A stretch of DNA of 56,764 nucleotides, filler included, from Dugesia japonica (Eukaryota), in NCBI GenBank assembly GCA_001938525.1. It is 6 parts of 6 records of this genome, joined end to end, with 100 filler letters (N's around TTAATTAATTAA, not from the genome) between each part and the next. Parts side by side here need not be neighbours in the genome. Positions count along the whole stretch, not along the records: positions 28,964 to 37,854 come from MQRL01322976.1; 5 more parts are not named here. One strand, 5' to 3'. A program made the translations under genes and the position numbers. The stretch's first letter is position 1; every line of letters starts with the position of its first letter. This document shows, one piece after another, positions 15,639 through 54,790 of the stretch. A model generated the notes under the pieces. That model was given only the letters and a program-made list of their open reading frames with translations, did no database searches and was not told where the DNA came from.

Positions 15639-15679
15639 GATGATGATGAATATTAAATCTATAAGAAAGAGAAGAAATA

Positions 15680-16922: not shown

Positions 16923-16934
16923 GAAATAGCGAAG

Positions 16935-17648
16935 ATGTCTCATCAATTCTTAGTAGTTGGAAAAGAACAAGATTTAAAAGTAAACCTTGATTTCCCTATA
17001 AAATTAGATTCAGAATNTGAACTTGGAATGTTATATTTTTCATGTTACAATATTATATTTAACATTACAAATTTAAATAATAAATTTAAAATCTCACAAC
17101 CACAAGGGCAAGAAAATAAAGAAGAAAAACTAGAACCAGGATCATATGAAGTAAAAGAAATGTCATCTAGATTAGATAAATATTTAGAAATTATACCTGA
17201 CACTGCAACATCTAAATGTAACATGAAAATAAAAAACACATTAACTTTTGATAATAAATCATTCTTTCATACATTATTAGGATTTAAACCTGGAAAATAT
17301 GAACCTAAACCTGAAAAATATTATTCAGATGATAAAATTAACATTATAAATTCTAACGCGTTAAATATTACATGCAACATTGTTAAAGGTAATTATGTAA
17401 CAAATAAAACAGAAAGATCCATAAAGGAAGAAACAACTAATATTAATCTTTTATATTCATTTCCAATTAACACAGTACCATTTGGATATAAAATAGTAGA
17501 AAGACCATCACCAGCTATTTATTCTAAAATTAATACAGACTACATTGACAATTTTAAATTTAACATAGTAGATGAAAATTTTAACACAATAGATTTTAAC
17601 AATGAAACAATTACAATTTTAGTTCATTTAAGAAAGTATCGCCTTTAA
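16935..17648 (+). CDS. Minor capsid protein (penton, single jelly roll)
   Basis: PIKLD..ELGM, PGSYE, LLGF, ITCNIVKGNY, PFGYKIVERP..IY, IVDEN..IDFNNETITILVHLR: Polinton penton pattern. Confidence 0.85.
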   Translation: MSHQFLVVGKEQDLKVNLDFPIKLDSEXELGMLYFSCYNIIFNITNLNNKFKISQPQGQENKEEKLEPGSYEVKEMSSRLDKYLEIIPDTATSKCNMKIKNTLTFDNKSFFHTLLGFKPGKYEPKPEKYYSDDKINIINSNALNITCNIVKGNYVTNKTERSIKEETTNINLLYSFPINTVPFGYKIVERPSPAIYSKINTDYIDNFKFNIVDENFNTIDFNNETITILVHLRKYRL

Positions 17649-17664
17649 AACCTTTTATTATAAA

Positions 17665-18150
17665 ATGGCATATAGCGTAGCAAAAGCGAAGCCCATAAAG
17701 GAAGAAAGTGCATATAGTTTATTAGATTTTCTAAAAACATTTGGTATTAACACAACAACAAATTATGATTTATATTCAATAGCTAAATTTTTAAATCTAC
17801 CATTAGAGATTTATATGAAAAATGAAGACTTTAATATTTCAAATGAAAAATCCATAAAGGACCATAAAGGCAGAAAGGAAGAAAAATGTTACATTTTCAA
17901 CTATCAAAATTCAAATCAAAATGGAACACATTAGGTTGCTTACTATAAACATCAATATTTTGATTCTTTTGGTTTAAAACCTTTAAAACAAATCCCATGT
18001 GTAAAAGTTTACAATAAAATTCAAGTGCAACATTTTGACACTGAAATATGTGGCATTTTATGTATTTATTTTTTATATAAAATCCGACATGTTGCATTTG
18101 ATACTATAATTTTAGAGATGAAAAATTTATATAAAGAAATAGATACATAA
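17665..18150 (+). pseudogene. Adenain-like maturation cysteine protease with one premature stop
   Basis: NQNGTH*VAY..YFDSFG..QVQHFDTEICGILC. TAG at 17932-17934 replaces the Trp of GTHW; the frame then stays open to TAA at 18148-18150. Confidence 0.9.
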
Positions 18151-18175
18151 AGAGCGAAGCCTATAAAAGAAGAAA

Positions 18176-19993
18176 ATGAATAAGTTTGGTGCTACTGCTG
18201 ATTCTGGAAATTCAACAGAATTATTAAAAAATGTTAATGCTAAAATTAAAATGTCAGAAGCTCAAAATGAAAATAAATATGTAAATGAAACTGGTGACAC
18301 AATAACATCTTTAAAAATAAAAGAAGATCCTATAGAATTAAATGATGCTGTTAATTTGAAATATATAAAGTCATTAGAAGAAATATTACAGAAGCATGAA
18401 ATAATATTCAGTAAATTATTAAAAGTTGATAGTTACACATCTAACAAGTTATATTTAGAATCTAAAATCAGTGAANNNNNNNNNNNNNNNNNNNNNNNNN
18501 NNNNNNNNNNNNNNNNNNNNNNNNNNNNNNNNNNNNNNNNNNNNNNNNNNNNNNNNNNNNNNNNNNNNNNNNNNNNNNNNNNNNNNNNNNNNNNNNNNNN
18601 NNNNNNNNNNNNNNNNNNNNNNNNNNNNNNNNNNNNNNNNNNNNNNNNNNNNNNNNNNNNNNNNNNNNNNNNNNNNNNNNNNNNNNNNNNNNNNNNNNNN
18701 NNNNNNNNNNNNNNNNNNNNNNNNNNNNNNNNNNNNNNNNNNTTATTTAAAGAATATGAAAAGATAAAACCTAAACTACATAAAACTTTTATTAATAGAT
18801 TTAACATTTTATTTAAATCTAATTCATTCGAAAAAATAAAAGATTTAATTGATAATTATTTACCATATGTTTTTCTTGATACTAAAAAAAGCATATTTTC
18901 ACTTATTTGTAATGATAAAAGCGATCTTCCACAATTTACTGTTATGGATGAATATGTAACCAATTTAGATTTTAAAATAAAAGGTGGAATGGAAAATCAT
19001 CATTTTATTATTACAAATGGTTTTACAATTCATTTAACCACAAAGATAAATGAAAAAATTTATTTTGATATATCAGGTTATTATTTTCCATCTACAATCT
19101 TTACATTTCACCTAATAATTAATAATACTACTCATGAATATGTGACTAATACAAATAAAGAAAATCATATAAATTTTAGAGGAATAGTCTTAGAAACAAA
19201 AATAAATTTAATTGAAATAATTTTACCAAAATCATTCCGGTTAAATAGTATAAGTGTTTTAAGTGAAAAAATTGTAACATTTGAAGAATTAAAAGAAGAG
19301 TATGAAGAAATAAAACCTAAATTTAATAATAAACAAATTAACAATATTGATTTATTATTTAAAACTATAAATAATGAAGCTATAAGAGAAATGTTAGATA
19401 ATAGTAAAAAATATGAAGATATAACTAAAGAGTTTGAAAAGATAAAACCTTTCTTACATAAATGTTTTATTGATAAATTTAANNNNNNNNNNNNNNNNNN
19501 NNACATACAAAAAATAAAACATTTAATTGATAATTATTTACCTTATTCATATAGTTTATCTGGCTCCCAACAACGTGTAATATTTACAATTATTCCAATG
19601 AAGAAAAATGATTTACTTCCAAGTTATAATATTAATGATATTTATGTTCGCGATTTACATTTTACAAGAAAAGATTGCATAAAACATACAACATTCAATG
19701 ATCATTATTTTAATATTAAAGATACTCTAATTATTNNNNNNNNNNNNNNNNNNTTTATTGGAAGAGTAAGTATAAGTATAGATGGTTTCTGTGAAGTTCC
19801 AAAATTCACATATTACATTACTATTAATCATATGACAGGAACATTTTTATTTGTTAAACCTAATGATAATCTTATGAAAATTTATCGTGAAGGCAAAGAA
19901 ATTTTAAATGTTTATAGAATAAAATTTATTGAAATAATATTACCAAAAGGAATTTTTTTAATGAATTTAAATGTTAAACTCTCTAAAAATTAA
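18176..19993 (+). CDS. Putative fibre/spike-like protein with duplicated modules
   Basis: MNKFG start, shaft-like KYVNETGDT..DPIELNDAVNLKYI, three KE(Y/F)ExIKP helical repeats, two beta-rich domains each ending IEIILPK. Contains N gaps. Confidence 0.55.
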   Translation: MNKFGATADSGNSTELLKNVNAKIKMSEAQNENKYVNETGDTITSLKIKEDPIELNDAVNLKYIKSLEEILQKHEIIFSKLLKVDSYTSNKLYLESKISEXXXXXXXXXXXXXXXXXXXXXXXXXXXXXXXXXXXXXXXXXXXXXXXXXXXXXXXXXXXXXXXXXXXXXXXXXXXXXXXXXXXXXXXXXLFKEYEKIKPKLHKTFINRFNILFKSNSFEKIKDLIDNYLPYVFLDTKKSIFSLICNDKSDLPQFTVMDEYVTNLDFKIKGGMENHHFIITNGFTIHLTTKINEKIYFDISGYYFPSTIFTFHLIINNTTHEYVTNTNKENHINFRGIVLETKINLIEIILPKSFRLNSISVLSEKIVTFEELKEEYEEIKPKFNNKQINNIDLLFKTINNEAIREMLDNSKKYEDITKEFEKIKPFLHKCFIDKFXXXXXXXXIQKIKHLIDNYLPYSYSLSGSQQRVIFTIIPMKKNDLLPSYNINDIYVRDLHFTRKDCIKHTTFNDHYFNIKDTLIIXXXXXXFIGRVSISIDGFCEVPKFTYYITINHMTGTFLFVKPNDNLMKIYREGKEILNVYRIKFIEIILPKGIFLMNLNVKLSKN

Positions 19994-24060: not shown

Positions 24061-24392
24061 TTCTTTACTAGTCTTTATTGTTATTGTATTTCTTTCATTT
24101 TTCTTTTATAATTATTGTTTTTTATCGCGTTTAATTCCATCAATTATAGAAATAATAGAAACTATCAAATAAACCTTAAGCAAATTTTCAGGCAAGTTTT
24201 TCGATTTCCTAATGATGCTTAATAAAATGAATTTGTTACTTCAGTCTTTTATTAGCAAAAGCCTAAAAAATCGTATTGAAATTCTAATTAACATTTTTAT
24301 AAACATAAAATTTTTGTAAATTATATAATTATCTTAATTATAATAAGTATATCTTAAATTATTTTCAAAACAATGATAAACGAATGTTTCAG

Positions 24393-24556
24393 AAATCAAA
24401 ATATTTTTTCCGAATTGAAAATTATCCTTTTGTTTATGTGTATGCATCGAATTTAGGATTTGTCTTTACTACTTATCATCCTTGTAATGATCGCTGGTCA
24501 TTAGCTGCAATATCAATTGTTATTTCATGGACAAACTTAATGTTTTACATACAAAG
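24393..24556 (+). CDS. TRPA-like ion channel exon (S3-S4)
   Basis: TTCAG acceptor, GTAAGG donor. KSKYFFRIENYPFVYVYASNLGFVFTTYHPCNDRWSLAAISIVISWTNLMFYIQ aligns by eye with TRPA1 KRNYF..N..W..AIAV...WMNFLLYLQR. Confidence 0.75.
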
Positions 24557-25109
24557 GTAAGGTTTTGATTTTATCTATTATATATTTTCAATTTAATTTA
24601 TGTATTGTTATTTTATTTTAAATATATTTAATATATTTTCAAAAGTTTTTTTTAGAAGAAAATTTTAAATAAAATTTGACAAAACAATAAGAAAAGATTG
24701 TAGGAAAAATACTGAGAATTTTTTATTTTAGATCTGATATTTAAAATTTTGAATTATCTAAATCAGTGATGCACAACTCGGAATCAGCGACCCAAGTCCT
24801 GAAAAAAAATGTAAAATGTATTTTTTATAGAAATATAATTCTATACAATAAATATTCCACGGAATGCACAACAATTTCCTCCAAAATACTAGCTGCAAAG
24901 TGACACTTTAACAGTGCTATATTAAACTGCCGAAGTTAGATAGTATAGTATAGTAGAACATTGTTACCTAGAATTTTAATAAATTCATAACAAACTACTG
25001 ATGGCTATCCATACAATACTGTCGATTTTTCTTTGGATGTTGTTGTAATTTGGGATGGAATTCTGCTAGTAACTCTTTACATCCCATAATATTATAATAC
25101 ATTATAATA

Positions 25110-28863: not shown

Positions 28864-28963
28864 NNNNNNNNNNNNNNNNNNNNNNNNNNNNNNNNNNNNN
28901 NNNNNNNTTAATTAATTAANNNNNNNNNNNNNNNNNNNNNNNNNNNNNNNNNNNNNNNNNNNN
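28864..28963. other. Artificial contig linker
   Basis: 44 N + TTAATTAATTAA + 44 N. Confidence 0.97.
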
Positions 28964-29935
28964 GGGACACTAGATAAAATTCTTAGCGGGGTTTTATTAG
29001 GCCAACTACCCTAGACTTATTAGCCTACATTGATAAAACCCCAACAAGAGTTTTGGGTGCTCAGCCGGCATTTGAATAAAATTTTCTTGCAAATCATGGG
29101 GACACGTAAAACCACACTGATTAAATATCCATAACTAAATATTAACTAGCACAATAAATTCGGTAAGGATTGAAAATTCTAAAACGTTTTAAGATGAAAT
29201 GAATTGGCGAAGAGTGTATAGGAATTAATGTAACAAAAGTTATTCCTTAATGCATTTAGTCAAAATATCAAGTACCTCAACAACGACGGTATTGTTATAA
29301 TAATACTTACAGGATTAGTATTAGTCAATTTATTATATAAGATACTGACGTGATAAAATAAAAATAGTAAATAATAATTTTTAATCTAATTTAATATATA
29401 AACTAAATGAATTCAATCTGCAAATAAATTATCAAAATAAAAGTAAAATATTAAGTAAAAGAGACAACGCGCAATCTCTTCTATAAATAACTTAACACAA
29501 CCAAATACTTGTGGTCCTAAAGAGGACAATGGCTCATGCGCAGTTTCGGATTAAGGTAATTTTAGCCAAGTTTTCCAAGCCAGTTTTAATGAAATGCCCC
29601 GATGGAATTCGGCAGACGATAAAAGATAACAGAAGTCAATCTTACTGATAAATTTTTCCCCTCCTATCTTCAAACCGCTACATATCTCTAAAGTGTAATC
29701 TTTAGTTGGAATGTTATATAGACTTTATGATAAAAAAATCAATCTCGTTAGAAAATTTGTTAAAAAAAACTCACTAATACAGCCTCTTTCACCACCTATC
29801 CAAATAATATGGTTTTTGAGGGATTGGTTATTTTGCGACTGATTAAGATTTTCTTCTAATGTTCACTGTATTGTAGCTTGGGGAGTGGGTCCTTGGCAAC
29901 GGTAATTAGCGGCCATTTAATGATAGAAAAGGGAC

Positions 29936-30180
29936 CAAATTCGATCTGAAAAGTTCAGCTAAAATTTCTAATAACATTTAATTTAACTAAAATATTTAAC
30001 ATTAAAAGTTACTTACCATAGGATTATAATATGACAAAAAAGAATTTTTGTTTTCAAATAGCAATCAAATTTGATCTGAAAATTTCGGCTTAAATGTCTA
30101 ATAATAAAATTGAATTTAACTAAAATATTTACCATTAAAAGTTATTTACTATAAAATTATAAAATGGCAAGGAAAAATTT
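29936..30180. repeat. Diverged tandem duplication, ~130-bp period, 2 copies
   Basis: caaatt(c/t)gatctgaaaa..aatttaactaaaatattta(a/c)cattaaaagtta at 29936 and 30066. Confidence 0.85.
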
Positions 30181-31048
30181 TATTGAAGAAGATAAACAAT
30201 TAATTTTAGAATGTTAAAAAAAAATATTAAATTAACAATAAAAATAAACTGAATTAAAACCGTTTCAATTGAAAAATGGGTTAATAATATTAAAGTTGTA
30301 ATTAAATAAGGAAATTAAAGTAAACTAAGAATAATGCGAGTAAAGTGCATTAAAAAAATAAAATCAAACTGAAGAAAGAGTATAAGGGTAAAACTAAAGC
30401 GAAGCAAGAATCTTGAAAGCCAATTAAATTGAAAATAAGATAAAGTAATAGTATGAGAACTGAAGTGATAAAATCGAAGCAAAATAAGAAGACTAAAATG
30501 ATATTGAAGCAAACTTAAGCATATCAAAAATAAATTAAGAAAGTTAAAGTAACGTAAGCACATTGTAGTAAGATTGTNAAGATGAAAACAAAANGAGTAT
30601 AATAAAGAAAAGTGGGCGTATTGTTGTTGAAATAAAACTAAATTGAAAATATTAAAACTAAAGTAAAATCAGCATCTTAAAGTAAATTAAGCACAATAAA
30701 GTGAATCCAGCCCAAATCCAATATATCAAAGCTAATTAAGAATTGTGAAGTAAGCCTAAAGTATGAAAAGAAAGAATTCAAGCTTATTACGATTAAAAAT
30801 ATCAAAAAAACAAAATTAAGCAAAACAAATTTAAATAAGTGAATATATTAGTAAGGGTATTATGGTTAAGAATAAAGCAAATTCAACATGAATAAGAGTA
30901 TTGAAACTAATGTGAACTCCAGATTTTAGAGTAATACGTATGAGCAAGTTAGGAATGTTGAAAATTAAGGGTTCACGGAGAGGTCCTCCTACCTCACGGC
31001 CTGGCTAGAAATATGGATATATAGACTAAGAAGATAAAATTGAAGTCC

Positions 31049-31146
31049 GGAAGAGTTTGCCTGCACTTTGAATGGTACTCTCACATAGCTTATAGATACC
31101 CGGTTGGCCAGGAGAGTTTGCCTGCTACTTAAATGTTACTCCCAAC
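31049..31146. repeat. Pair of ~35-bp direct repeats
   Basis: agagtttgcctgcactttgaatggtactctca versus agagtttgcctgctacttaaatgttactccca. Confidence 0.7.
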
Positions 31147-31692
31147 TCGCCTAGGAGTAAGGAAGGTGAAAAAATTAAATTAACACAATTTACAGGAAAA
31201 CCTAGTACAATAAGGGGCCTCAACTATCATACTTGCTGAGATTAGCAGTTGTGAAATTGGTCTGATCAACCAGACATCTGAGATACAATCGGCTCAGTTG
31301 TCCGCAGCAAAAGCTGCTCGAGTAGATATAACTGTTATAAAATTAGGAAAGCAATAAGACCGGAAGAAAAAGCTAGTCTCGGTGGAAAGCGATAAACCGT
31401 CGACGTCTTATACAAGGTAATGAATCTTAGATGTAAGTAACGGTAGTACACTTACTTCCAGGACGTACTAAGTATACTTCAGGTGACACGATCAATTCAG
31501 ATCTAGGCTTATACAAGTCTCATAGTAGCAACAGCTATTGGTTATAACTAACTAATTCGTCACCAGAATTATTTATTGCGCCTGTGCAAGCAAAATGCAA
31601 ATCACTAAGGCAACGAACGGTATTGCCTCCCTCTGGTAAAACCGACAAAATTTTACTGGTTATTCCAAACAAAAGCAATTTGCAAATAAGTT

Positions 31693-31975
31693 AAGAGTAA
31701 ATTACAAAAAGATATTACGTTTTAGACAGCAAAGGTATAGAAAGATTATTACAGTTCCGAAGCAAATTGCGTAAAGTATTGTATTCCAAGAATAAATTAC
31801 AAAAGGACAGTACGTTTTGGACTCAAAGTTATATAAAGATAATTACAGTTCAGCAGCAAAGTTTGAATAAGTATTGTATTTCAAGAGTAAATCACGAAGG
31901 GTTATTATGTTTCAGACAACAAAATGATACAAAGATCATTACAGTTCATGAACAAAATTACAAAAGATTATATCA
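31693..31975. repeat. Diverged 95-bp tandem repeat, 3 copies
   Basis: Units start aaga(g/a)taaat at 31693, 31788 and 31883; each has aaagat..ttacagttc. Confidence 0.8.
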
Positions 31976-32579
31976 ATTCATAAGTAAAATAAGTAATAAT
32001 ATCTAAAGGGTGAATTACAAAAAGTTATTATTTCTCATAAGCATATTACATAAGTAAATTACAATGGACTGATTGTATCTCATAAGCAAATTACTAATAT
32101 GTAATAAAGCAATTATTAAATCAAATATAAAATTCGACATTAATGAAGTTATAAAAATTAGCTATTGAATTAAGATTCAAAATTGATAATGAAATCAAAA
32201 TACGAAATCAGTCAGTAACTAAACATTCATACGAAGGACAACATCAGGTTAAAATGCGACTTTAAAATGAATCCCCATTGATAGTAAGTTATGAATCAGT
32301 TATCAGCAGAAAATGAGTAGATATTAATTAGCAGTCCTAATAAAGATTTCGACGAGGACGTCGAATTTAAACAAACCGAGGGTGGGTGAAGAGATGAAAG
32401 NNNNNNNNNNNNNNNNNNNATTTAGATTAAAGGGTTAATGGTAGCGGGGGTTTTCTAAAAAATAATGTGTTACAAGTACCAAACATTCGTTGGAGAAAGC
32501 ACAATCGAGTCGGAAATCGTTGCACCAATTGACACTTTTCAAGTAAATTAGTGTGTAATTATATCTTTTTTAGAAATAT

Positions 32580-35500
32580 GCGATGAAAATCATCAGAATG
32601 ATATCGCGGTGAATCCTTCAAAGGTAATCCCGAAGAAATAAACGAGTTCCTCCTAAGCTATGAAGAGCATGCCAAAGCTTTTGAGTGGGAAGAAAAAGAC
32701 AAAATCGAAATGATACCACTTCACCTGGAAGGAACTGCAAAATTGCTCTATAGACAGCAGATACGAGCTAAAGGAGAACTGTTCAACTCATGAAATGATA
32801 TAGAGCAATTACTACGAAAAAACTTTGAAATCCCAAGAGAATTCCAACATGCATTCAGAGAAGTAATATACTGTAAACAGCAAGAAGGAAAGAGCCCAAT
32901 ATTATATGCCATCAGGTTTAGACAACGCCTTCCGACAGAAAATTGGTTCCCAGAAAATGATATTGCATGCATCAATCCCTATATCGAAGGAATCTTGGAT
33001 AAAAAATTACAACCATTCATCAAAAATCGAAAACCTCAAACATTAGAAGAAGCAATCAAAATGCATCAAGAATATGAACCAGAGACATCACAACTAGTCC
33101 CACGACCAAGACGATGCAGTAAATGTCGACGCAATGGTCATCAGGAAAAATGATTGCCGTAATATAAAGAAAAATGTGGAAAATGTGGACGTAAAGGACA
33201 TAAGAGTGAGGACTGCACGAATGCACCACTCATCTGTCGTTATTGTCAAAAAACTGACTATCAAAAATTAAATTGCCCTAAGAAAGGATGTCGAGGTAGT
33301 AGAAATAATATGAAAGAAGACGAAGAAGTGAGGTATGTGCATGAAAACTGGCAAGTTTGTAAAAAGACTCTAGAAAACAATCTATCAGAAAGGTTATGTA
33401 TGCTACATATAAAACCAGACTAAACACCCTTTAATCAAGAAAAGAAGGAAGCAGAAAAAGTTGCGATCAAAAAAGTAATGGAAGAAGGAGCGGTAAAAGA
33501 ACAAAATAACAAATGTATATGGGGACTATATGAACAACTGGCATGAAGGAAACAAAGGAAAAATGAAACCTTTCAGGAGTTTGCAGCCACAATAAAGGAT
33601 TTGGCAAGATTAGCAGGCCTAACAAATGAGCAAATGATAATAAGATGTTTTAGATCTGGCTTACGAAACACATTGGTAAGAAGTCACGTAGCTTCAAGCA
33701 AACCCCCTGATTTGAACACTTCTATATTAAAAGCCGAAGCCATGAGTGAAGTATTAGCGGAGCAACGACTAATTTTAGGAAAGGAAACTGCTAGTCAAGA
33801 AACAAGGCATGGACAAAATAACATGAAAAGTAGATGTCAAAATTGCCAGAGAACTCATCCTAATACTAATCAATGTACTATCAAATATACTCATTATAGC
33901 ATCTNCGGTCGGAAAAACCACCCTATGGTTAATTGTTGGCACAGATATTGTAGCAAATGCGGCAAGAATGAACACCCAGAAGAGAGATACCTACTCAAGA
34001 GAATCAGATCAGAAGAAGAACAAAATTCAGAAAACAATAATGAAGTTAACGAAGTCCATAAGCAACAAATTGAGAATCGAGGCAAGGAAGCAGCATGATT
34101 AGTCATGTTAAAAATCAAATTACCAGAAAACCAGGAAACTAATACAGTATCACCAAAAACTCAACAAGTACAAAAATGTTACATTTGCAACAAACAAGGG
34201 CACCAAGCAAAGGAATGCCCAAGAAAAAATAGGGTATGTTATGTCTGTAGAAAACCGGGTCATATTGCAAGATTATGTCGACAGAGAATAGACATTGCAA
34301 GACCGAGGAATATAATTGAGGTTGGAAAAAGTCGTCATTACGAAGAAAATAGTTCTCCAATTAAATATGAACAATGATACACAATAAGACAAGATAAATA
34401 TGATGAAAATACAAGGAGCAAGTTGGTAACAAGAATCCTCTTCAAAGAAAACCAATAATTAAGTGAAAAAATGAAAAGTAATCAACAAAGAATCACTCGA
34501 CTAAGAAAAGCCCTAACTAAACTGAAACCCAATGCGACAGAAAACGCACCAGAAATCATCATACAAAACGAGGATAAAATAACTCCGGAAGAGAAAACAA
34601 ACACGGAACTTAATAAAGAGAAACAAAATGAGCTAATAGCAGTAATAGAAACTCAAGATGGCGGATTTAGCTTCTCACTAATAATACGAATTAACAACCA
34701 ACCAATGAAAACCCTATTGGACACTGGAGCATCCCGATCAGTATTGAATAGAAACAATATATCCCAAAACAAAAGAAAAGAAATAAAACCCTATACAACC
34801 CGAGGAACAGGGGTTAATGGAGAAACCGTGTGGATCATTGGAACATTAGAGTGCAATGCACAACTTCAAGGAAAAACAGTAAAGCACCAATTCCTGGTAA
34901 TGAAAACCAATGTGGATGCAGTGTTAGGTACAGACTTAACGCCCAAACTTTAAATCGGGACAAAATTGGATTTCACTACATTTCAAATCAAAATAGAAAA
35001 ACCAAGACTAAATACAATAAACATGTTTTAATTAAGCCAGAAAATGGAAGAAGTGAAGTACGTAAATACCAATCCTGGAAAAGACCGAAACATCCTGGAT
35101 GATCAATGCCAAANNNNNNNNNNNNNNNNNNNNNNNNNNNNNNNNNNNNNNNNNNNNNNNNNNNNNNNNNNNNNNNNNNNNNNNNNGGTCAACGAAATCC
35201 AGGAAATCATCAAAGTGCTAAGTAACAATAAACAATTGATTACAACCAGAACAGCCGAACTCATCGTAGCACTCCATAATTTTAAACCAATGATAAATCC
35301 AGAAAACCAAATAGTATTGGAAGAACTAGTATTTAACCAAGGGCAAAGGTTATCGGGGCTAAAACCAGAATCATTTAAAATAAAAGTCTTTTGGGTTTAC
35401 AATAAAAGAACACTAATAATATCAGGAGATTACCGATGGTGCGATTTAGCGGAATTAGTTAGAAATAACGACCAAGAGGCCAGAGAATCAGTAAACGAGA

Positions 35501-37696
35501 AATCTTAAGAAATACATTTTGGTGCTACACCTATTGACAGTGAATCCATGGATCCAATACAATTAGAAGGACTCTGGAAAAATGCTGGAATCAATATATT
35601 CGTCGAAAATAAAGGAGACGGACCAAACAATCGACATCTAAACCGATTAAAGATAAGCTTGAGAAATAAAGCTCTTCGAGCTTTAACATTATTTGATGAA
35701 CAAATAGAATCAAAGGGGCAAGAACCAAGATTGGCATGGAATAAGAAAATAAAGTATAAAAAGAACTCGGAAGGAGAAAAGATATTGAAAGCACCTAAAG
35801 ACTTACTACGAGCAGTAACTATGCAGCTACAAGAAATAAACAAAATAATTCACAAGGTAAATCTAATGACTGAAGAATCATAAGAGAAAACCGTGGTAGT
35901 AACAAAGATATTAACACTCATAGAAAAAGAACGGCGGACCTTTATCAGTGTGAAAAAGTGCAAAAAATGCGAAAAGAAGGGACATTTCAAAGAAAGTTAT
36001 TGGGCAGATAAAATATGTCACATCTGTGGCAAAAAAGGACACACATGGAAAAACTGTATCAATAAACGGGGAAATTCTAAGAAAGAAAAAACACAAATTC
36101 GCCACAAAAAGAAAGGAAAACGGGAAAATGCAGTGACCGAGTCAATTAAACTCTACATGCTACAGGTGGAAACCGTAGAAGCTAAAGAATCAGACGATTT
36201 CACAGAAGTGGTGACCAATAGGAAAAATGAAAGAGAAACAATGAGCAAAATGAAAACCAAAAGCCAGATGTCAGAAGCAGGCGCTCTAAATTCACAGGAA
36301 GTCGAAATAAATCAAATATATAGCCCAGAACAAGTAAACTATATAACAAGNACAAACTCAAATCAAGAGTCAGAACTATCATCAAATAACGATCTTACAG
36401 ATCAGATGGAAGAGCTGTTACGGGTATTAACGTTACAACTAAAGGAGTTGGAGGTAACCAATGCAGTACGCAAAGTATCGGTAGAAGCAATAGTAGAAAG
36501 TGTCGTAAAGTCAAGACATTCGAAATTCAGAGAACAAGAAAAAAGAACAAAATTCGTAATGCAATTGTTGTTAAAAACCTGGAATGAAACGGAAGAAGTA
36601 ACAATGAAACCCACGATACCTAAACAAAAAGAAAACTATAAGTGTAGTGAATGTGGTAAACTTGGTCATCTGGCAACCTGGTGTTGGAAAATTAGATTAT
36701 GCGAATATTGTGGGTAATCAGATCACCCAAAGAAACTATGTTGAAAAAAACCATGCAAATTATGTGGCAAATTAGAACATGCAGAGAAACAATGTAAAAA
36801 AGAATCGGATATCGAACCTATCTTTAGAGGAGAGGGTTGCACGAGATGTGAAAAAAGAATGCAAAAAATGCAAATGTAAAATGCAAAAAATGTGACCGCA
36901 AAGGACATACTGAAATAGTATGTCAACCTGACAAACAATGTACCAAGTGTAGAGGGAGAGGACATCTAGTAGAACAATGTGGCATTCCTAGATGTTTCAA
37001 CTGTGGTAGAACCGGACACACCATGAGAANGTGCCGATTTAAAGCAAGTAGTAAAGACTTAGCTCTAATAATAGAAAGATCAAACAAGTTGTGTATGTTA
37101 CAAGTAACCAAGGAAGAGGAAACAGAGCAAACGCCTGATATTTTGAATGGAAACCAATTAATGCCACATATAGAACAAGATAATCACCAGACAGTACCAG
37201 AAGACTGGCAGAAATGCTTAATGCGTACGATGGCCGGATATCTAGATTAGAGGAAACCTTACGGCTGAGTCAAGTGCAATGCCAAAATCTCAAGTTTTTA
37301 GCAAATAAAGCAATGGGTGAAAAAAGAGATGGAATAATATTAAGGGATACAGAGATGACCCACCTACAAAGAAGAATATCATTCAGTCAAAACCATATTT
37401 TCCGATTAGAAGAGTCTTTACGTTCAAGCCAAATACAATGTCAAAACTTTAAACTATTATCTAAGAAGACCATAGAAGAACAGAGAGCAACCAGTGGAAA
37501 ATTGTTAGAAATAATTGAGGAAAGAAAAAGATTCTACAAACAGTTAATGGATCAACAACAGAACTGGAAAACCAGAGCAGACGAAAATTTAAACATGAGC
37601 AAAATCGATCAGCCTCAAGCTCCAAAACCAAATGATAACGAAATCTGGAACAAAGCGGCACCAACAAAGCCCATTGCAATAATAAGCCCCATCTGA
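32580..37696 (+). pseudogene. Disrupted LTR-retrotransposon-derived polyprotein: capsid, zinc knuckles, second capsid C-domain, knuckles, aspartic protease, more knuckles, coiled coil; no RT
   Basis: SFKGNPEEINEFL..YE..W..LEGTAK..KQQEGKS..FIKNRKPQTLEEAI (32610-33060). Second MHR-like KQRKNETFQEFA..FRSGL (33550-33665). LLDTGASRS..DAVLGTD (34714-34938). About 16 CCHC-type knuckles. Confidence 0.85.
34471..34953 (+). CDS. Retropepsin-type aspartic protease segment
   Basis: INNQPMKTLLDTGASRSVL, flap GTGVNG, DAVLGTD. Confidence 0.9.
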   Translation: MKSNQQRITRLRKALTKLKPNATENAPEIIIQNEDKITPEEKTNTELNKEKQNELIAVIETQDGGFSFSLIIRINNQPMKTLLDTGASRSVLNRNNISQNKRKEIKPYTTRGTGVNGETVWIIGTLECNAQLQGKTVKHQFLVMKTNVDAVLGTDLTPKL

Positions 37697-37854
37697 CAGA
37701 ACCAATCATTCAATGGACAATCAGACAACTCGATAATCTATTCGGGAGAAAGCAACGAGCGTCACTACTCATCACTTCGTAGAATGACAGGAACCTTTGT
37801 CTGATAAAGCAAAATGAACTTATGATAAATTAACTATAAATATCGGTGTGTAAT

Positions 37855-37954
37855 NNNNNNNNNNNNNNNNNNNNNNNNNNNNNNNNNNNNNNNNNNNNTT
37901 AATTAATTAANNNNNNNNNNNNNNNNNNNNNNNNNNNNNNNNNNNNNNNNNNNN
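37855..37954. other. Artificial contig linker
   Basis: 44 N + TTAATTAATTAA + 44 N. Confidence 0.97.
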
Positions 37955-38373: not shown

Positions 38374-40420
38374 TTAGGCCATACTATTATTTCTTACACT
38401 CCAAAAGTGCTTATCATCCATGCAAGACAATACGTGTTTCTTACTCTCTATTGTAAAAACCTGATGATTTATTGATTGGAAGCAAGTCTGCATAACTCTG
38501 TTTGGTTCTTCATCTCCATCTCCATCTTTGTTGTATGCACTTACATAAGTTTCATGATTGATATTTGTTAGTTTTAAACTGGTTCCTTTTGCTTTCATTG
38601 TCATACTAGCATCTGCTTTCTTCAAACTATAACATGTGGGTCTTAGGAAGACCCATTCAGTATAATTTTCACCTTTTCCTTCATCTTTAAACAATTCAAT
38701 TTTATTCACACATTGCTGGAATAGAGTGGATGGTATTTTGAATAATTGCTTGTATCCACTAGACCATCCGATTTCAGCTGAGAAAAGTGTTGGTTTTTAT
38801 CTACTCCAGTACACAATAAGAAAAACTATTTGTATCCTCTGCAATAATATCAATTTATCAACCAAATTGTTTTTGATATTTATCTAGTTATTCATATTGG
38901 AGCGTATACAGTTGCTATTTACTCAAATCGAGAACCACCTGACCAATATAACTCAGTATATCTAGACATATTGTATCTTTCTCTGGCAAAACAGCCTTGA
39001 GTCCTTCTGCAATATTCATTGTTTGCTTAAATGTAGCTATACTAGTGTAAGTTACAAATTTCTTCGTATTGTTATATATCCGGAGTTCCACACGCTTCTT
39101 TAAACTCTCCACAGTCTTACCATATAACGCATTATTTAATATTTTGTAGAAATGCTTTTCAAATTTGGACTTATGTTCTGGTCTTCTCGCTAAATTTGCA
39201 TTAATATAAGTATTTCTGTTTGTTTGAACTGAATTATTCTATGTATTGCAGTCACACGAACCTCTAGCTTTATATATAATTCTTACAATCTACAATATAC
39301 TATATAATGTCGTTTTGGTTCGAGTGTCATTAACAACGTCTTAACATTTGATCCAGGTTGACATTTATGTTCTGGAGCTAAAGGTAATTGATCGAACTTA
39401 TTATGATGTTCGATAGATATTTTAAAATCAATTTCAAGCAAGTAGTTAATCTCGTTATTGTTACAGACGAAATTCTTCTGATATGTTTTTTCATTTTGAT
39501 CTTCTGATACAATTTCAAAATCTCTATATGGTAAAGGCTGTATTAAGGCCCAACCATATAGGTTATTAATGTCAATGTAAAGCAGTGAGGTATTCTCATC
39601 CGCCTGGAAATAATGCTTGTTCACAAATGTCATTCCTTCACAAATTTCTTACTCTTACAGACAATGTATTTCAGCATCTTGGAGTAACTCTATTGGCCTA
39701 TCCATCGACTTGAGAGCACTTGAACAACTCAATTCTGGCAATGAAAGCAATCTTAATGGCTCCAATCCATGTTTTTCAAGTGCCTTTTTACTAAATGTTT
39801 GAAATACATTGGCTATCTATATCTATATTATTGTTTTTCGATTTTATGTTCTTTGCTATTTCATATTCTTCCCTTGTTATTTCTGAGGATCATGCTGGTA
39901 AATCGGTTTGATTTATGAGCATTTCATACGAAGTTGCAAATTTATATGGGAATATACCCTTGCTTTGTTGAACATGTATAAATTCAGTTGATGTTATGGA
40001 CGAGCATTCAAGAGTTTTTGTTAATGATGATAAACCTGAACTGAGAAACTGGAATGAATTTATAAATCGTATCGTGGCATCATTTCTAACATGTGCAAAC
40101 ATAGCCAAAACCTTTTCAGTTGTCTGGGCAATTGGATTGAGATCCCAATGCAAAAATTTCTTGAGCGCATATTCGATAATGTGATGTGAATCATAACCTT
40201 TAAAGTTATGAAACACAACAGACAACTATTCTTGCGTGATAAGTTAAATTGATTACATGCTTCTCTGAGATATTTTCTAGTATAGTGATCATGACAACGA
40301 ACCAGTTTGTGTTTATTACTTCTACACATGTAGCAATGTATGCTTTTTGTAAAGTCATCTTGTTCTGTTATGTCACGTTCATCTATGTACACATAATTTT
40401 CTTTTACTAAGGAGCTACTA
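38374..40420 (-). pseudogene. Decayed Polinton-type protein-primed PolB, diverged from the copy at 11191
   Basis: Ordered fragments CHDHYTRKYLREACNQFNL, FHNFKGYDSH, RFINSFQFL, KGIFPY, YIDINNLYGWA, YIGQVVLDLSK, EDTNS, FKDEGKG..FLRPTCYS, KAKG, DDK. Confidence 0.9.
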
Positions 40421-40459
40421 CATTTTTAGACAATTTATCAATACATTGTAAAAGGTTTT

Positions 40460-41130: not shown

Positions 41131-42379
41131 TGTTTCACCAAATGACTCTAAGTTATTAATTATTAATTGATAAACTATTTTACTTAGGAAAATGTTACTT
41201 TGAGAAGATTGTGATTCACCCGCAGAAGATTTCCTATATAATAATAATTCTATATTTTACTTAACTACTATTACCATATTTGAGTTAGAGTTGATAGAAG
41301 AAATATATATGTTTCGTCTATGAAGAACGACATTTAGTTTTAAAAGATGTGATACACTTCCTGAAGTATTTAAATAATTTATTGATGAAAGATACTGTAC
41401 TACATCTAATCTTGGAAAGGTTAATATTGTTTTAAGTCTGAAGATATTGTTTCTTGTAATTCTCTACCAAGAACTAAGAAAAATCGTGTTATTTTCTCAG
41501 ATTTAGTCGATAAGTAGAATCCAGAGATACAAAAATGTTATTTTATGTGAGTTGAGCATAATAACTGTAGTGTGATATGCATTTCTTATTTTGAATAAAA
41601 TCAATATGAGGAATAAAATTTATTGTTTTATATTCTTCAAGTTATATAAAAACAATCCAGATAGAGTATATCATGGTTTATGATTATACTTTAAACAGTT
41701 ATTGTAATGATAAGTACAGATAAATTTCGTTTAATATAGATGATGGAGAAAAGATAAAAGATATTTAAGATGTATAATCAATTCTCATAGATACTGTCTA
41801 GACTCTAGAGAGACAATTGAGATTTCTGTAAAATTTTTATGAGTAACGACTGGAACACTGATTATTCTGTCGCTTTCAGAGATAATGATAATTTGTTTTG
41901 TCCGCAGTTCTTAGTTCTTTCTTATTACTCGATGATCAAAAATACTTTTATCATATTATTGGAAACTTAGTTTTTTATTAAATTGTTTTTCACGTATAAA
42001 AAATTATTAGGTTTTATTTTATGTTTATGTCGCTATATGAAGAAAGATGCCTGACACTACACTATAATTTAGCTGATTCTTTAAATACAGTAATCCCCAC
42101 GTATTGTGATCATGTTTGTCAATTTATAATTGTTCCTAAATGACGATTCTAATAACCGAAAAAGAACGGTCCTTTGAAAGTTGATTCTATAAAGGCGCTG
42201 ATTTTAATAAAAAGTTATCACAATAATGGCACTTACTGTAGTTTCAGAATATATTTATTTTACTATTATTATTAATATTCTTATTATTAATAATATTATT
42301 ACTAACATTATTATTGTCTGTGATCATTATTTATTGTTAAATAAATAATTAATTATATTAATTATATTTCATAAATTAG

Positions 42380-43420
42380 AATGTCCTACTCCATATTCAA
42401 TTGTTTGCCCATGTCCAGGAAATCCCAGATTGAAATCCATAATACGTCATTTTTACGTAACTGTCAATTGTAAATGCGTACATCGCAAGATTCTNATTCC
42501 ATGTCCTTGCCACAAAATACCAAATAAAATAGAAATTGGGTCATGTACACCAGAAAACACAAAAACTATTAAAGTATTTAAATCTGTTAATATTCAAAAA
42601 GGATGCAAATGGGAATTATTCAAATCGTATCAAGATATTTGCGGTTAGTCAAATATTTTATGAATATTTCTAAAAATGATAATTTTTTGTCTTTCAGAAT
42701 GTAAAAAGCTTTCCATTATAAAAACATGTCTCAAACACTCAATATATCGTACGACTACATTATCAAACTATCGCGTTAAAATTCCCGATCAATTTCCAAA
42801 GCATATATGTGTAGAATCAGAAATAGTTAAAGACAAAATAATTCGTGAGTTTTTCAGTAGCGATTTAAATATATCGAATTCACAAAAAATTTTAGAATGC
42901 AATAAAAACTACATTTCCTATGGATATTGCAGCAATTATAGACAATCCGTAATAGAATGCGTGTACAGAAGTGTAAATTGTCGATGTGAAATGAGTTGTC
43001 ATATAATTCGTTATCGTTGTTGTGAATTTCAAAAACTGGATTACTGCAAAACAACATGTATAAGAAATATNNNNNNNNCTATTTGTTATAAACACAAATC
43101 TGGACCATCACGATGCATTTTAGATTTCACTTCAAAGATTCCCATTGTTGAAAAATGTCCATCAGAAACCAATATTCAATGTAGAGAATTGAATTATCCA
43201 ATCAATAATTGTTATTATAAATCATGCGATAAATCATTTTACGTTTATCAAAATTGTCGGTGTGTTACACATACCCAAACAAAATACACGATTATTCGAG
43301 CTCGAAAACCTACAAGACAAATACGATGCATCCATAATAGGAAAGTTGTGAAAATAACAAATTTTATCGTTAAACAAAATCGATGCCAACCATTGTATCG
43401 TGAAGAGTTCATTAATATCG
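42380..43420 (+). CDS. Host gene, two internal exons (42380-42643, 42698-43420) of a cysteine-rich repeat protein
   Basis: AG/GT boundaries, 54-bp intron, all phase 1, open frame with recurring CP...C...NCxCV modules. Confidence 0.75.
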
Positions 43421-45149
43421 GTAATTATAACTTATAATTAAATTGAATTAAATATTTCATAAGTTAAAAAAATATACTATTAGTTTGCTTAAGTAAATAA
43501 TTAATTTGTTAAATTTTAATAATTTTATGGCTTCTTTGAGATTATCTCAGTTTGTTGCATGGGATTGTGGTGTGAGCTCAAACATGTAGGTCTCAAAGTT
43601 AACGATATCAAGAAGTTTTCTATTAATGGTGTGATAGTCATCTAAGAACTGATGATCCCATTCCGGACTTGCTTTGTTGGCTGAGGTGGTTGTTATCAAC
43701 GTCGATGACAACAGTGGCTCAGAAATGGAGCTTGATTCATAGAGTCTCATTTCCCCTCTATTTCCTAAGCGTTCTCTTTTCATATTTTTCTTTTTTGTTT
43801 TGTTTTAACAGATATCTGCTTATCTCACTACGACATAGCGACCCTCTGAAAATTGTCTGGCCTGTAAGCTAATTTGTGTTTTCACGGAATTTCTAGACGT
43901 GCGTTATTTTTTGTTAACGGTATTTTAACACCAAAAATATACCAGGAAAAATGATAATTAATATATAACCTAATATTTTAAAATATTCTATTGATAAAAT
44001 GTTTATGTATACTTCTACTTGTTTCATTTATTTTAATAAATATATATGAATACTAATTTGTTAATCGTTGGTAATACACATTAACACACTAAAATATAAT
44101 TAGATTCTCAAATAAATCTTGAAACAAGATTATTTCACAAATAACTCATAATTGTGGCCTCAATTCTTTAGACTTATTTGAATCTTTCCATTTCGGCCTT
44201 CTCTTATATCGTCAGTATACGTCACAATGGTGACTCTTTCTGGAGAATGTTTGACGGACCAGATTTATTTTGAATTTATTCGATTATATACAATTTTAAA
44301 AGCTATAATCAAAATATTGGTAACAATTTTTTAAAAAATCTCAAAACTAAACATTGAACTAACTTCTTCATATAACGTTTATTAGACCGTGTCAGACAAT
44401 ATGTTGTTGGAATTAGAATGCCTACATTGTTGTGAGTTATTCATGTTAACTTTAAATAAAATCTGATTGATAATATTTTGAAACCGAAAAAGCGGGAGAA
44501 CCTTACAGAACAAAACTGTCATATCTATATAAAATATTGTTCAGTTAGACTCTAACATGGATGAACAATGTGAGACACACGGGTCTCGAGCGACAAGGTT
44601 AACGTTTTTGCATGCAAAACTTTGATTTCTGACTTTTCTAATATATGTTCTCAATGTTGAATTGAAAAAAGGAATTTAAATTACGAAAATTAAATATATT
44701 TAAAAGCAGTGTTTATTTCGCAAAACGTCTTCAAGAGAACCTCTATGTATTTAATTTATTTTGACTATATTTGTAATTGATTAGTAAATTTCATCTTAAT
44801 TTAAAAAGAAAGACAGTATTATAATCACGTGTCTAACTTTTTTATCCTAAAAATGTGCTTAAAACAACCAATAAAACAAATAAAGGTAATAAATTTCCAA
44901 AACAAGACTAATTTAAGAAATAAATCTCATAATGTATATATTCAAAGATTTTATCAAATTTACATTATATTCGAGAGGTTTCCACAATTAGTCACAATGC
45001 AAATCATGTTATTTTTTGGCAAGACAATAAATTGAAGGATTTGAGGTCTTTGAATAAAATTAATTTTAAATAGTTTAATAAGCTGATAGAATATTTGAAA
45101 TCTTGTTTTTACTCATTGGACAAATATTGTTTGCACTACAATTTTCGTG

Positions 45150-47250: not shown

Positions 47251-48130
47251 CAGGTGTGCATAATTATTGACAAAATCCAGAAAAAGTACAACATGTAACT
47301 ATATATTTATCTCATTACCATTATTTACAATTACTTTAACTAAAAAAGTTTCAAAGATTGATAATAATTCGTTGTTTGGTTGTATCGATTCACAACAACG
47401 CTTTCCATATTTTTTCCGTTAAATCGTTTAAAACTTTCCAGATATTCTCCATTATGTTTAAATCTGGAGATTGGGCAGGCCATGATAACACTGGAAAATG
47501 CGCACCAGCAATCCATTCTTTAACTATCTTTGCAATAAGGATTCTGGAATTATCATGTTGGAACAAGAAATACTTCCCATAATTCAATGTACAAATGGGT
47601 ACAATACTTTTACAAAGTAGGTCTACATATTCAGGACTTTTGAAGTCTCTATTTAATGTTTTATGCGATAAAGACCATTTGGCAGAACCATGACTCATAC
47701 CATAATATGCCTACATTTCTTCTGGTACCTGAGACAATAAATGATTTGATTTCTTATGCATATGTTGATGCATATGTTCTCCAGTCATCTGGTTCATCAA
47801 AGGAACCACAATTTTTGTCTGAAAAAATTGTTCGCTATGATAGATGATTTTCTGTTAACCACTTCTTCGTCACATCACAGCGTAAAACAGAGTAAAATCT
47901 TGTCCAATGGTTTAGTTGTAAACTTCTTCTTACTTTCTTGTACATCATGCCTTGTTTTCGTTCTCTTTTTTTCGGTCCTCTTTTCATTGACTTTGTTATT
48001 AATCTTTTTCGGCAAATACTAATTACAGAATTCCTAGATATTTTGGTTTTTTCAGATATTCTTGTGAAACATCTAATTTAGGGCTTTGCAATACCTCCGA
48101 AAAGCTAACATCATTCATAACCCTCGCATC
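47251..48130 (-). mobile_element. Tc1-family transposon remnant
   Basis: FLFQHDNS and WPAQSPDLNIMENIW. CAGGTGTGCATAATTATTG at 47251 resembles a Tc1 terminus. Confidence 0.85.
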
Positions 48131-50155: not shown

Positions 50156-50476
50156 CTATAAAAATGTTTGAGAATTGTTGAAATTATCAATTGGTTTGAG
50201 GAGAATAGTCAACCAATTTCGTTCAATTTTATTAAAAATCACTTGGCGATTCTTTGACCATATTGTACACAAAAATTCCTCAATTGGTTTCGATACTTTT
50301 TCGTTATTTTGAAATTCATTGACAACTTCAACTTTAAAACCGTCAATTGGGCATATTAGACAATCTGAAAATATGAAATCATCCAAGCAATCAACACAAA
50401 ACACACGATTGCACTTGTTTACTGTTGCATAATTTTCATTAGCCACATCATAGCATATTATACAAAATAGTTCCAT
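50156..50476 (-). CDS. Small intronless RING-finger protein (putative viral E3 ligase)
   Basis: CIIC..CNRVFCVDC..CPID, a C3HC4 pattern with Arg at the His position. Confidence 0.7.
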   Translation of the reverse strand: MELFCIICYDVANENYATVNKCNRVFCVDCLDDFIFSDCLICPIDGFKVEVVNEFQNNEKVSKPIEEFLCTIWSKNRQVIFNKIERNWLTILLKPIDNFNNSQTFL

Positions 50477-51066
50477 TTTATGATCTAATTATTGTTGAAA
50501 TTAAAACAAATTTATTGTTTCCTTTTTAATATAATCAAAAATAACAAATTAAAGTTGAATTAAATTACAAAATAATTATTATAATTAATAATTATTAACC
50601 ATTATTTTTAAATAATTTTATAACACGTTTTGGTTAATAAATTTGGAATTATAAAAAATGATGAAAATGTACCAATAAATATTTTTTAAATTGAACTCAT
50701 TTTTGAGGAAATAAGAAATTGTGCCTGGGAAAAATTGTAAGCCAAGATCATTTTAAAGTAAAATGANCAATAGTATTTGCTAAAAAATTACGTAACTATC
50801 AGATTAATTAATAATTTCATTGAACGTAAATTGAATATCAAATTGTCAAATAATCTATCAAGAAAAAATTTTAAATGATAATTGAACATTCACAAAAATG
50901 TTATTGGCTCTATTTCCTTCAACATTTCCTTCTGTTTTTCTGATAAAATGACATCATTCAGTTTTGGAAAGTTTACAATGCTTACAATTATTTAATTTAA
51001 GAAATAGTATTAAAATTATTAATTTAATTAATTAATTAAATTAATTAATTACATCAATTAATTCTT

Positions 51067-54219: not shown

Positions 54220-54309
54220 TAATTTAGAATAATTAATTTTTAAGGTGGTATATATTCCTGTATAAACAATATTAATTCAATAGATACGTTTAAACAAGCA
54301 TAAATTATA

Positions 54310-54790
54310 ATGGAATTAAGAAATGATGCTTTATATCAAATTGTTGAACCCAGTGGTAGTGGAATAACCTTGTTTGTGTGTAAATTATTGAAATCAAATT
54401 TATTCAAATCGAAATTCAATAAAATATATTGTCCAAGAGGTACAGATGAGGAGCATGGAATTTTTCAATCAGCACTTTGTGATATAAAAATGAAAATTAT
54501 TAATGGATTTTATGACAATTGGAGCAAGGGATTGAAAACAAGTGATGTGGTTGTTGTTGATAATTTGTATCAGGAAGCCAATAATAAAAAAGACTTTAAT
54601 AATTTATTCACAATAATATCACGACATTGTGGTGTTACTGTGATATTTATTACTCAAAATCTATTTCATCAAAGAGATAGTCATGGAAACCACCATTTAA
54701 ATGTTCAAAATTTGGTTATATTTAAAAACCCAAGAGATCAAACAGTTGCTGATTTTCTAGCGAGACAAACGTTTTACAATTGCAATTATT
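54310..54790 (+). pseudogene. Polinton packaging ATPase (A32/FtsK-HerA-like), decayed
   Basis: Degenerate Walker A IVEPSGSGIT, Walker B VVVVDNL, SRH..VIFITQNLF, FKNPRD. Confidence 0.88.

What the first reader, a model, noticed from the sequence alone, without database searches (positions are those of the whole stretch)
32580..37696. Gag-concatemer polyprotein: two capsid modules, about 16 zinc knuckles, protease, no RT
Seen: a full capsid domain with 3 knuckles, a second capsid C-terminal domain with 3, then 2 more, a retropepsin, an unknown domain, clusters of 2 and about 6 knuckles (at least 9 intact CX2CX4HX4C overall), and an internally duplicated coiled coil (RLEETLRLSQVQCQNLK / RLEESLRSSQIQCQNFK). 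Established: Gypsy Gag normally has one capsid and 0-3 knuckles, with RT right after the protease. Here about 2.7 kb after the protease has no RT motif. Inference: an unusual, possibly non-autonomous lineage with an expanded RNA-packaging polyprotein.
Basis: partly seen in the sequence, partly recalled or inferred. Interest (0 to 1): 0.75.

Follow-up and report, generated by a model that had tools for sequence, protein, structure and literature searches.

The report
Retrotransposon Gag with sixteen zinc knuckles
A dead copy of an abundant animal jumping-gene family encodes one very long capsid-and-protease protein with two capsid units and sixteen RNA-binding zinc knuckles but no reverse transcriptase, which is either encoded just past the end of the sequenced piece or borrowed from another element.

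Summary
The architecture is real, but the copy is decayed and its contig is cut off. One frame runs from 32578 to about 36850 with 16 stops (about 103 expected), then two frameshifts, ending near 37696 (about 1,700 aa). It holds a full Ty3-type capsid, a second capsid C-terminal domain, 16 knuckle units (3+3+2+2+3+3; 9 intact), a retropepsin, an orphan domain, a duplicated helix-plus-knuckle module and a duplicated coiled coil. No RT, RNase H or integrase is in the 8.9-kb contig. A heap of nested ordinary elements is unlikely: three database proteins (47-64% identical) cross the first module borders, and thousands of short contigs from two DNA runs cover all 30 bins. 'Non-autonomous' is not shown: only 158 nt follow the ORF, less than the 274-nt mean spacer between Gag-protease and RT in Ogre elements, and the contig ends in a 9-mer that also precedes the acceptor-like site before this ORF. 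Best reading: ORF1 of an unusual Gypsy-derived family, cut by its own protease, with pol in a separate downstream ORF (0.5) or absent (0.3). Host not identified. New variant of a known kind.

The parts
28964..37854 (.). Contig that holds the finding, bounded by artificial N-linkers (28864-28963, 37855-37954)
30962..32577 (+). High-copy non-coding leader (possible LTR part / 5' UTR); no terminus, PBS or Rfam family found
   Evidence: depth rises and 28 contigs have loose ends at 30962; no coding signal; negative
31693..31956 (+). 95-bp tandem repeat, 2.8 copies, in the leader
   Evidence: joints going back 86 nt in both DNA runs
32551..32573 (+). 9-mer followed by a T-run and AG (splice-acceptor-like) just before the ORF start; the same 9-mer forms the last bases of the contig
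   Evidence: function inferred
32578..37696 (+). Decayed ORF1, about 1,700 aa: 16 in-frame stops in the first frame, two frameshifts; the true start may lie a few codons upstream (relative P0005 has 13 more residues)
32620..33147 (+). Full Ty3-type capsid (N- and C-terminal domains)
   Evidence: relative P0005 64% identical
33115..33276 (+). Knuckle cluster 1 (3 units, 1 intact here; all 3 intact in relative P0004)
33532..33759 (+). Second capsid C-terminal domain, only 14% identical to the first
33835..33990 (+). Knuckle cluster 2 (3 units, none intact here; the third is intact in relative P0006)
34177..34278 (+). Knuckle cluster 3 (2 intact units; relative P0006 has 3)
34684..34950 (+). Retropepsin with catalytic DTG motif
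35114..35186 (.). 73-N run between protease and orphan domain; frame is kept across it
   Evidence: same frame open downstream in 6 of 6 N-runs tested inside long ORFs
35187..35754 (+). Orphan alpha/beta domain, no assignment
   Evidence: no Pfam, NCBIfam or PDB match; low-confidence models; no fold match
35755..36057 (+). Helical module 1 plus knuckle cluster 4 (2 units, 1 intact)
36361..37034 (+). Helical module 2 (paralogue of module 1) plus 6 knuckle units (5 intact, 1 with a stop), split by a frameshift and a lone CxxC
   Evidence: 13.1 bits, 0 of 1,000 shuffles
37184..37696 (+). Coiled-coil C-terminus with an internal 53-residue duplication; no relatives found
   Evidence: negative
37697..37854 (+). 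158-nt non-coding tail, still high-copy, cut by the contig end
   Evidence: codon scores -2.1, -3.5, -0.1 in three frames; depth 183,962 / 67,573 in the last bin

Best explanation
This is a decayed copy of ORF1 of a high-copy, Ty3/Gypsy-derived retroelement family in an AT-rich animal genome. Shown: ORF1 is one Gag-protease-accessory frame of about 1,700 aa with the modules listed, shared by other copies and by more distant relatives, and it ends without RT. Inferred: in live members the retropepsin cuts the polyprotein, at the repeated hydrophobic motif behind each knuckle cluster, into a full capsid, a second capsid-CTD/knuckle piece, several further nucleocapsid-like pieces and a coiled-coil piece; the surplus knuckles coat or select a long genomic RNA. 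Inferred, least certain: RT-RNase H-integrase sit in a second ORF just beyond the contig end and are reached by splicing, as in Ogre, so the element is a large autonomous one. I put the shown part at about 0.85 and the whole reading at 0.5.
For: Frame kept for 4.27 kb with 16 stops against about 103 expected and 117 and 106 in the other plus frames. A codon model trained on that frame follows the two frameshifts out of sample and fades at about 37696. Relatives P0005 (aa 3-153, 64%), P0004 (156-395, 48%) and P0006 (451-565, 47%) are the only 3 hits under 1e-30 among 1.84 billion representatives; P0004 joins capsid 1, three intact knuckles and capsid 2 in one open protein, and the three have a residue at 8 of the 8 stop positions they cover, of 16. 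Each capsid CTD pairs with its counterpart in the relative (support 100/99 and 98/96), so the two-capsid layout predates their split. Two DNA runs from two studies lay 11,238 and 5,557 contigs over 30 of 30 bins, most 90-95% alike; the 15 joints shown (of 65) are local skips of at most 202 nt or a tandem-repeat back-step. The motif L-[CYFV]-M-L occurs 4 times, each behind a knuckle cluster (at most 2 in 5,000 shuffles; motif chosen after seeing it), is kept in P0004 and P0006, and similar motifs flank the protease of the Gypsy protein P0171. For a downstream ORF: Ogre's mean spacer is 274 bp (PMC6317226), the tail here is 158 nt; the last 9 bases of the contig repeat the 9-mer before the acceptor-like site of ORF1, found nowhere else in the window, chance 0.12% per position (noticed after the fact).
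Against: No RT, integrase, second ORF, LTR pair, PBS or TSD was seen. About 900 aa of non-enzymatic modules between protease and ORF end have no precedent in the papers read. No protein relative covers anything beyond aa 565, so the protease-to-tail order rests on this copy and on short contigs; no listed contig spans the N-run at 35114-35186, and depth over 34951-36160 (3,128-43,566 in X1) is well below the flanking bins (205,161 and 95,363), so that part may belong to a subfamily only. Depth is a sum over overlapping contigs, not a copy number. Cleavage sites, particle assembly and RNA binding are untested. The two RNA runs laid gave 12 and 158 reads, mostly under 90% alike.
Confidence: 0.5

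Rival explanations
1. Non-autonomous Gag-protease element: the family lost RT-RNase H-integrase, kept and multiplied capsid and knuckle modules under selection, packages its own RNA in cis and borrows RT and integrase from a helper Gypsy family.
For: No pol domain in 8.9 kb; ORF ends in a coiled coil and a non-coding tail; family is abundant and diverged; Gag-only non-autonomous LTR elements that still move are known in plants (TR-GAG; PMC9784723 passages); an earlier AI note describes a multicopy gag-protease ORF with an orphan tail in another genome (e1-7352100, unchecked).
Against: Only 158 nt of tail are visible; the contig ends in a motif shared with the acceptor-like site before ORF1; no 3' LTR or purine tract in the tail; no helper with a close capsid was found (best outside capsid CTD 26-34% identical).
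Confidence: 0.3
2. Mosaic: the 5' half (two capsids, three knuckle clusters, protease) and the 3' half (orphan domain, helical modules, knuckles, coil) come from different elements or subfamilies, joined in this copy or by the assembler at or near the N-run.
For: Depth dips over 34951-36160; no listed contig or protein bridges the N-run; the two capsid CTDs are only 14% identical, so an old fusion of two Gags is likely in any case.
Against: The frame is kept across the N-run and N-runs are length-true in 6 of 6 tests; the same post-knuckle motif occurs in both halves; strand composition is uniform along the ORF (A 0.39-0.47); no large pile of loose ends at module borders among the 19 rows shown of 1,211.
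Confidence: 0.1
3. A Burro-type giant planarian element (or a Repbase family already described) seen as a decayed fragment.
For: Burro has an N-terminal Gag with 2-3 knuckles, multi-motif and coiled-coil regions, tandem repeats and thousands of copies, and decayed fragments occur in a related species (PMC6431247 section 7).
Against: None of MATH, BIR, ankyrin, BCL2, env or dUTPase is found; the protease lies at aa 703, not beside RT; 5 published primers (3 BURRO1, 2 GLT2) have 6-8 mismatches of 20 at their best sites; the host is not shown to be a planarian.
Confidence: 0.07
4. A domesticated host gene derived from Gag (CNBP-like or Arc-like).
For: Domesticated Gags with 5-6 knuckles exist in plants (PMC9784723 passage).
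Against: 16 stops and 2 frameshifts; very many diverged copies; the relative P0005/P0004 also appears broken, at a different place.
Confidence: 0.03

Closest known systems
Ty3/Gypsy (Metaviridae) Gag-protease; nearest retrieved autonomous-type family P0011/P0045/P0052/P0057/P0085/P0134/P0171 (UniParc-derived, organism not given)
   Same: Ty3-type capsid (about 41 bits), three tandem knuckles, retropepsin (23.7 bits, 0 of 1,000 shuffles), similar hydrophobic motifs around the protease.
   Different: That family has one Gag per unit and integrase pieces (P0085); this ORF has a second CTD, 16 knuckles and no pol. Its coiled-coil tail is unrelated to ours and its capsid does not group with either of ours.
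Burro / GYPSM1 giant elements of dugesiid planarians (PMC6431247, section 7 read)
   Same: Very long Gag-led polyprotein with accessory modules and coiled coil; tandem repeats in the non-coding part; high copy number.
   Different: Burro puts its accessory domains (MATH, Ubl, BCL2, env, BIR, ankyrin) before the protease and carries dUTPase-RT-RH-IN in the same ORF; none was found here.
Ogre (plant Ty3/Gypsy, Tat clade; PMC6317226 passages)
   Same: First ORF is Gag-protease without RT; RT-RH-IN would follow after a non-coding spacer.
   Different: Analogy of layout only: the second ORF is not seen here, and Ogre has no 900-aa knuckle-rich extension in the passages read.
TR-GAG non-autonomous LTR elements of plants (PMC9784723 passages)
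   Same: Gag-type ORF without RT or integrase in a mobile family.
   Different: TR-GAGs are two LTRs around Gag alone; here a protease and many extra modules are present and LTRs are not shown.

Membership tests
Ty3/Gypsy (Metaviridae) | Ty3-type two-domain capsid | tested here: met
   Ty3_capsid aa 15-190 E 7.4e-6 (below curated cut-off), outgroup CTD profile 30.6 bits; relative P0005 passes Retrotrans_gag
Ty3/Gypsy (Metaviridae) | CCHC nucleocapsid after the capsid | tested here: met
   number far above the usual 0-3 (usual range from recall; Burro 2-3)
Ty3/Gypsy (Metaviridae) | Retropepsin with D-T/S-G | tested here: met
Ty3/Gypsy (Metaviridae) | RT, RNase H, integrase in that order downstream of the protease | tested here: inconclusive
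   absent from ORF1 and from the contig, but the contig ends 158 nt after the ORF
Ty3/Gypsy (Metaviridae) | Paired LTRs, PBS, PPT, target-site duplication | tested here: inconclusive
   no long direct repeat in the contig, no PBS-like or long purine tract by simple patterns; 3' end missing
Ty3/Gypsy (Metaviridae) | RT phylogeny inside Metaviridae | not testable with these tools
   no RT available
Burro | ORF1 with MATH, BIR, ankyrin, BCL2, env and dUTPase domains | tested here: not met
   none by Pfam in the whole ORF
Burro | Protease followed by dUTPase and RT in the same ORF | tested here: not met
   about 900 aa of other modules follow the protease and the ORF ends
Burro | Ubiquitin/SUMO-like domain | tested here: inconclusive
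   by-eye candidate at 35362-35619; beta-beta-alpha-alpha-beta model at pLDDT 50, best Z 4.2 to unrelated folds
Burro | Sequence identity to described Burro or GLT2 families | tested here: inconclusive
   5 primers do not match; they sample little of each element; Repbase not available
Ogre-like split organisation | Gag-protease ORF, spliced spacer, RT-RH-IN ORF | tested here: inconclusive
   first ORF and a non-coding tail with an acceptor-associated 9-mer seen; second ORF outside the contig
Non-autonomous LTR element (TR-GAG-like) | Two LTRs enclosing an ORF without RT and integrase | not testable with these tools
   3' end missing; no genome held
Domesticated Gag gene | Intact, low-copy gene | tested here: not met
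   16 stops, 2 frameshifts, thousands of contigs from diverged copies

The most novel reading that the evidence does not exclude
An old, very abundant, RT-less animal retroelement lineage that survives by expanding its packaging machinery: its own protease cuts one polyprotein into two deeply diverged capsid units and five or six nucleocapsid-like pieces whose knuckle number varies between subfamilies, and it parasitises a helper element's RT and integrase.
Probability: 0.3. Interest if true: 0.75.

Novelty: new variant of a known kind. Interest (0 to 1): 0.52.

Why it matters
Retroelement Gags normally carry one capsid and a few knuckles; a paper read here calls five or six knuckles untypical for retroelements (PMC9784723). 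A successful family with two capsid CTDs and 16 knuckles, conserved to 48-64% identity across relatives, shows that Gag can grow by module duplication. It offers a natural test of what sets knuckle number (RNA length, competition for packaging) and of whether a CTD without its N-terminal partner can join a capsid. If pol is absent it would be a clear animal case of a protease-bearing non-autonomous element; if pol lies downstream it would be an Ogre-like split in an animal.

Tried and rejected
Own genome not held. Word-index protein searches found nothing: whole read-through at near lengths, 0 of 5,150 candidates; coil ORF against longer proteins, 0 of 896; coil plus tail, 0 of 140. Locus scans empty: viral contigs, metagenome contigs. 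Ubiquitin-like reading of the orphan domain: likeness to P0022 not supported (score -1.7, shuffles up to 8.0), no Pfam, models pLDDT 39 and 50, no fold match; left open. A third capsid CTD in the helical modules: rejected. ORF continuing through the stop at 37694: no coding signal. Kinship of the coil to the tails of P0171, P0045, P0022: rejected. Atlas on the coil ORF gave only generic coiled-coil clusters at low recognition; the atlas was not available for the stop-containing part, so that route to the orphan domain stays open. Rfam 0 matches; no unusual fold at 31170-31400 (z -1.1). No RNA holder listed; RNA reads laid were few and mostly from relatives, which says nothing firm on expression. 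Capsid-CTD tree (45 rows, 80 columns, bootstrap not settled) does not place either domain among outside families. Of 25 in-ORF difference rows shown (40 of 678 rows shown, picked by the tool), 11, 10 and 4 fall on codon positions 1, 2 and 3: fits neutral decay of this copy but the sample is biased. Grohme et al. 2018 was not held; its supplements and Repbase may describe this family.
Full report
Setting. The window is six contigs joined by N44-12mer-N44 linkers; the finding lies on the contig 28964-37854. GC is about 25%. Neighbouring contigs hold Polinton-type polymerase ORFs, DDE transposase pieces and a RING ORF. No genome is held. All 24 runs listed carry one coded organism, with many RNA libraries. 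An AT-rich animal is inferred from this content; a planarian is only my guess and was not tested.

The reading frame. From 32578 one frame runs 1,424 codons with 16 stops, against about 103 expected and 117 and 106 in the other plus frames. A codon model trained on that frame moves to a second frame at about 36825, to a third at about 37200, and fades near 37696; the last 105 nt before the next stops score -2.1, -3.5 and -0.1. So the ancestral ORF was about 1,700 aa and ended near 37696, and this copy is a pseudogene. The 73-N run at 35114 keeps the frame, as do 5 of 5 other N-runs tested in long ORFs.

Modules. Pfam finds Ty3_capsid (aa 15-190, under cut-off), Retrotrans_gag (315-363, under cut-off), zf-CCHC and a retropepsin above cut-off. 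A profile from 11 outside capsid segments finds exactly two C-terminal domains and none in 6 other windows; they are 14% identical over 74 columns, so they are an old duplication or fusion. There are 16 knuckle units, 9 intact. Two helical modules before the late clusters are paralogues (13.1 bits, 0 of 1,000 shuffles) and the coil has an internal repeat (30.8 bits). The region 35187-35754 has no Pfam, NCBIfam or PDB match; two single-sequence models were poor and fold searches gave nothing above Z 4.2. No RT, RNase H or integrase appears in any translation scanned or by motif in six frames; scans of X-rich frames lose sensitivity for small domains.

Is the order a family trait? An exhaustive search with aa 1-1200 gave 665 hits at E 0.001 and 3 under 1e-30: P0005, P0004 and P0006, unnamed ENA proteins on short contigs. 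P0004 is one open protein from the end of capsid 1 through three intact knuckles into capsid 2; P0006 runs from cluster 2 into cluster 3, with three knuckles where this copy has two. They have residues at all 8 stop positions they cover. Each capsid CTD groups with its counterpart in these relatives. Laying two DNA runs gave 11,238 and 5,557 contigs on 30 of 30 bins, most 90-95% alike, with summed depths from 3,128 to 367,100 (X1) inside the ORF, while single listed contigs have depth 8-30; diverged pieces run from the coil across the ORF end into the tail; 15 of 65 joints are shown and all are local. Against: nothing bridges the N-run, no protein relative covers aa 566 onward, depth dips over 34951-36160, and summed depth is not a copy number.

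Mechanism. The motif L-[CYFV]-M-L stands 4 times, each behind a knuckle cluster, is kept in P0004 and P0006, and similar motifs flank the protease of P0171 and precede 3 proteases of P0022 (motif picked after seeing it). I read these as protease sites (inference; site preferences recalled). The polyprotein would give a full capsid, a CTD-knuckle piece, further nucleocapsid-like pieces and a coil. What supplies RT cannot be seen: the contig ends 158 nt after the ORF, inside the family's high-depth sequence. Ogre elements separate Gag-protease from RT-RH-IN by a spliced 274-bp spacer on average (PMC6317226, passages). The last 9 bases of the contig repeat the 9-mer that precedes a T-run and AG just before ORF1; it occurs nowhere else in the window, and 0.12% of window positions end in as long a match to that 100-nt stretch. 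This was noticed after the fact and is a lead only, but it tilts me to a second spliced ORF (0.5) over non-autonomy (0.3).

Comparison. The parts are Metaviridae-like; membership cannot be closed without RT or LTRs. Burro is the nearest described giant polyprotein (PMC6431247, section 7 read whole) but fails on domain content and protease position, and 5 published primers do not match (PMC8532177 passages and supplement rows). TR-GAG and knuckle multiplication in domesticated plant Gags are from passages of PMC9784723. Passages of PMC11410931, PMC13172572 and PMC13238120 and the supplement of PMC10954484 added nothing. Ten searches (listings seen) showed no description of this layout; the library lacks most subscription papers, Grohme et al. 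2018 and Repbase, so prior description is not excluded. Earlier AI notes gave no look-alike by sequence or place and loose analogues by words.

Verdict. Observation confirmed; interpretation partly supported. A real, abundant, old Gag-protease variant with two capsid units and 16 knuckles, seen as a dead and truncated copy. New variant of a known kind; interest 0.52, rising to about 0.75 if full-length copies lack pol.

Noticed in passing
window 11161-19993 (+): Polinton/adintovirus-like contig: 1,271-aa ORF with zinc fingers, endonuclease VII and a polymerase-B-like body (the last by eye), followed by a pX-like core ORF and three more long ORFs, all open.
   Followed up: no
window 38374-40425 (-): Decayed second Polinton-type polymerase, in pieces, on the next contig (assignment by eye).
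   Followed up: no
window 32551-32573 and 37846-37854: The same 9-mer precedes an acceptor-like site before ORF1 and ends the contig; possible second spliced ORF beyond the end.
   Followed up: partly
window 31206-31294: RNA reads of related elements pile here with loose ends, one starting with a TATA-like run; a motif shared by transcribed relatives.
   Followed up: partly
P0022 (ENA, 2,296 aa, 21.7-kb contig): Gag knuckles, a Monjiviricetes-type fusion glycoprotein and four tandem retropepsins in one ORF with no RT hit.
   Followed up: no
window 42349-43437 (+): Cysteine-rich ORFs without a Pfam match.
   Followed up: no
window 24309-24560 (+): Exon-like ORF resembling a TRPA1-type channel transmembrane segment (by eye and recall; Pfam did not confirm).
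   Followed up: no
window 7989-8315 (-), 47390-47710 (-), 51975-53679 (+), 54304-54819 (+), 50156-50488 (-): DDE_3 transposase pieces, a decayed hAT-like transposase and a packaging-ATPase-like ORF (by eye), and a RING ORF.
   Followed up: no
window 29936-30181 and 30180-30960: 133-bp tandem repeat and an A-rich, strand-skewed tract upstream of the leader, at lower but still multicopy depth.
   Followed up: no
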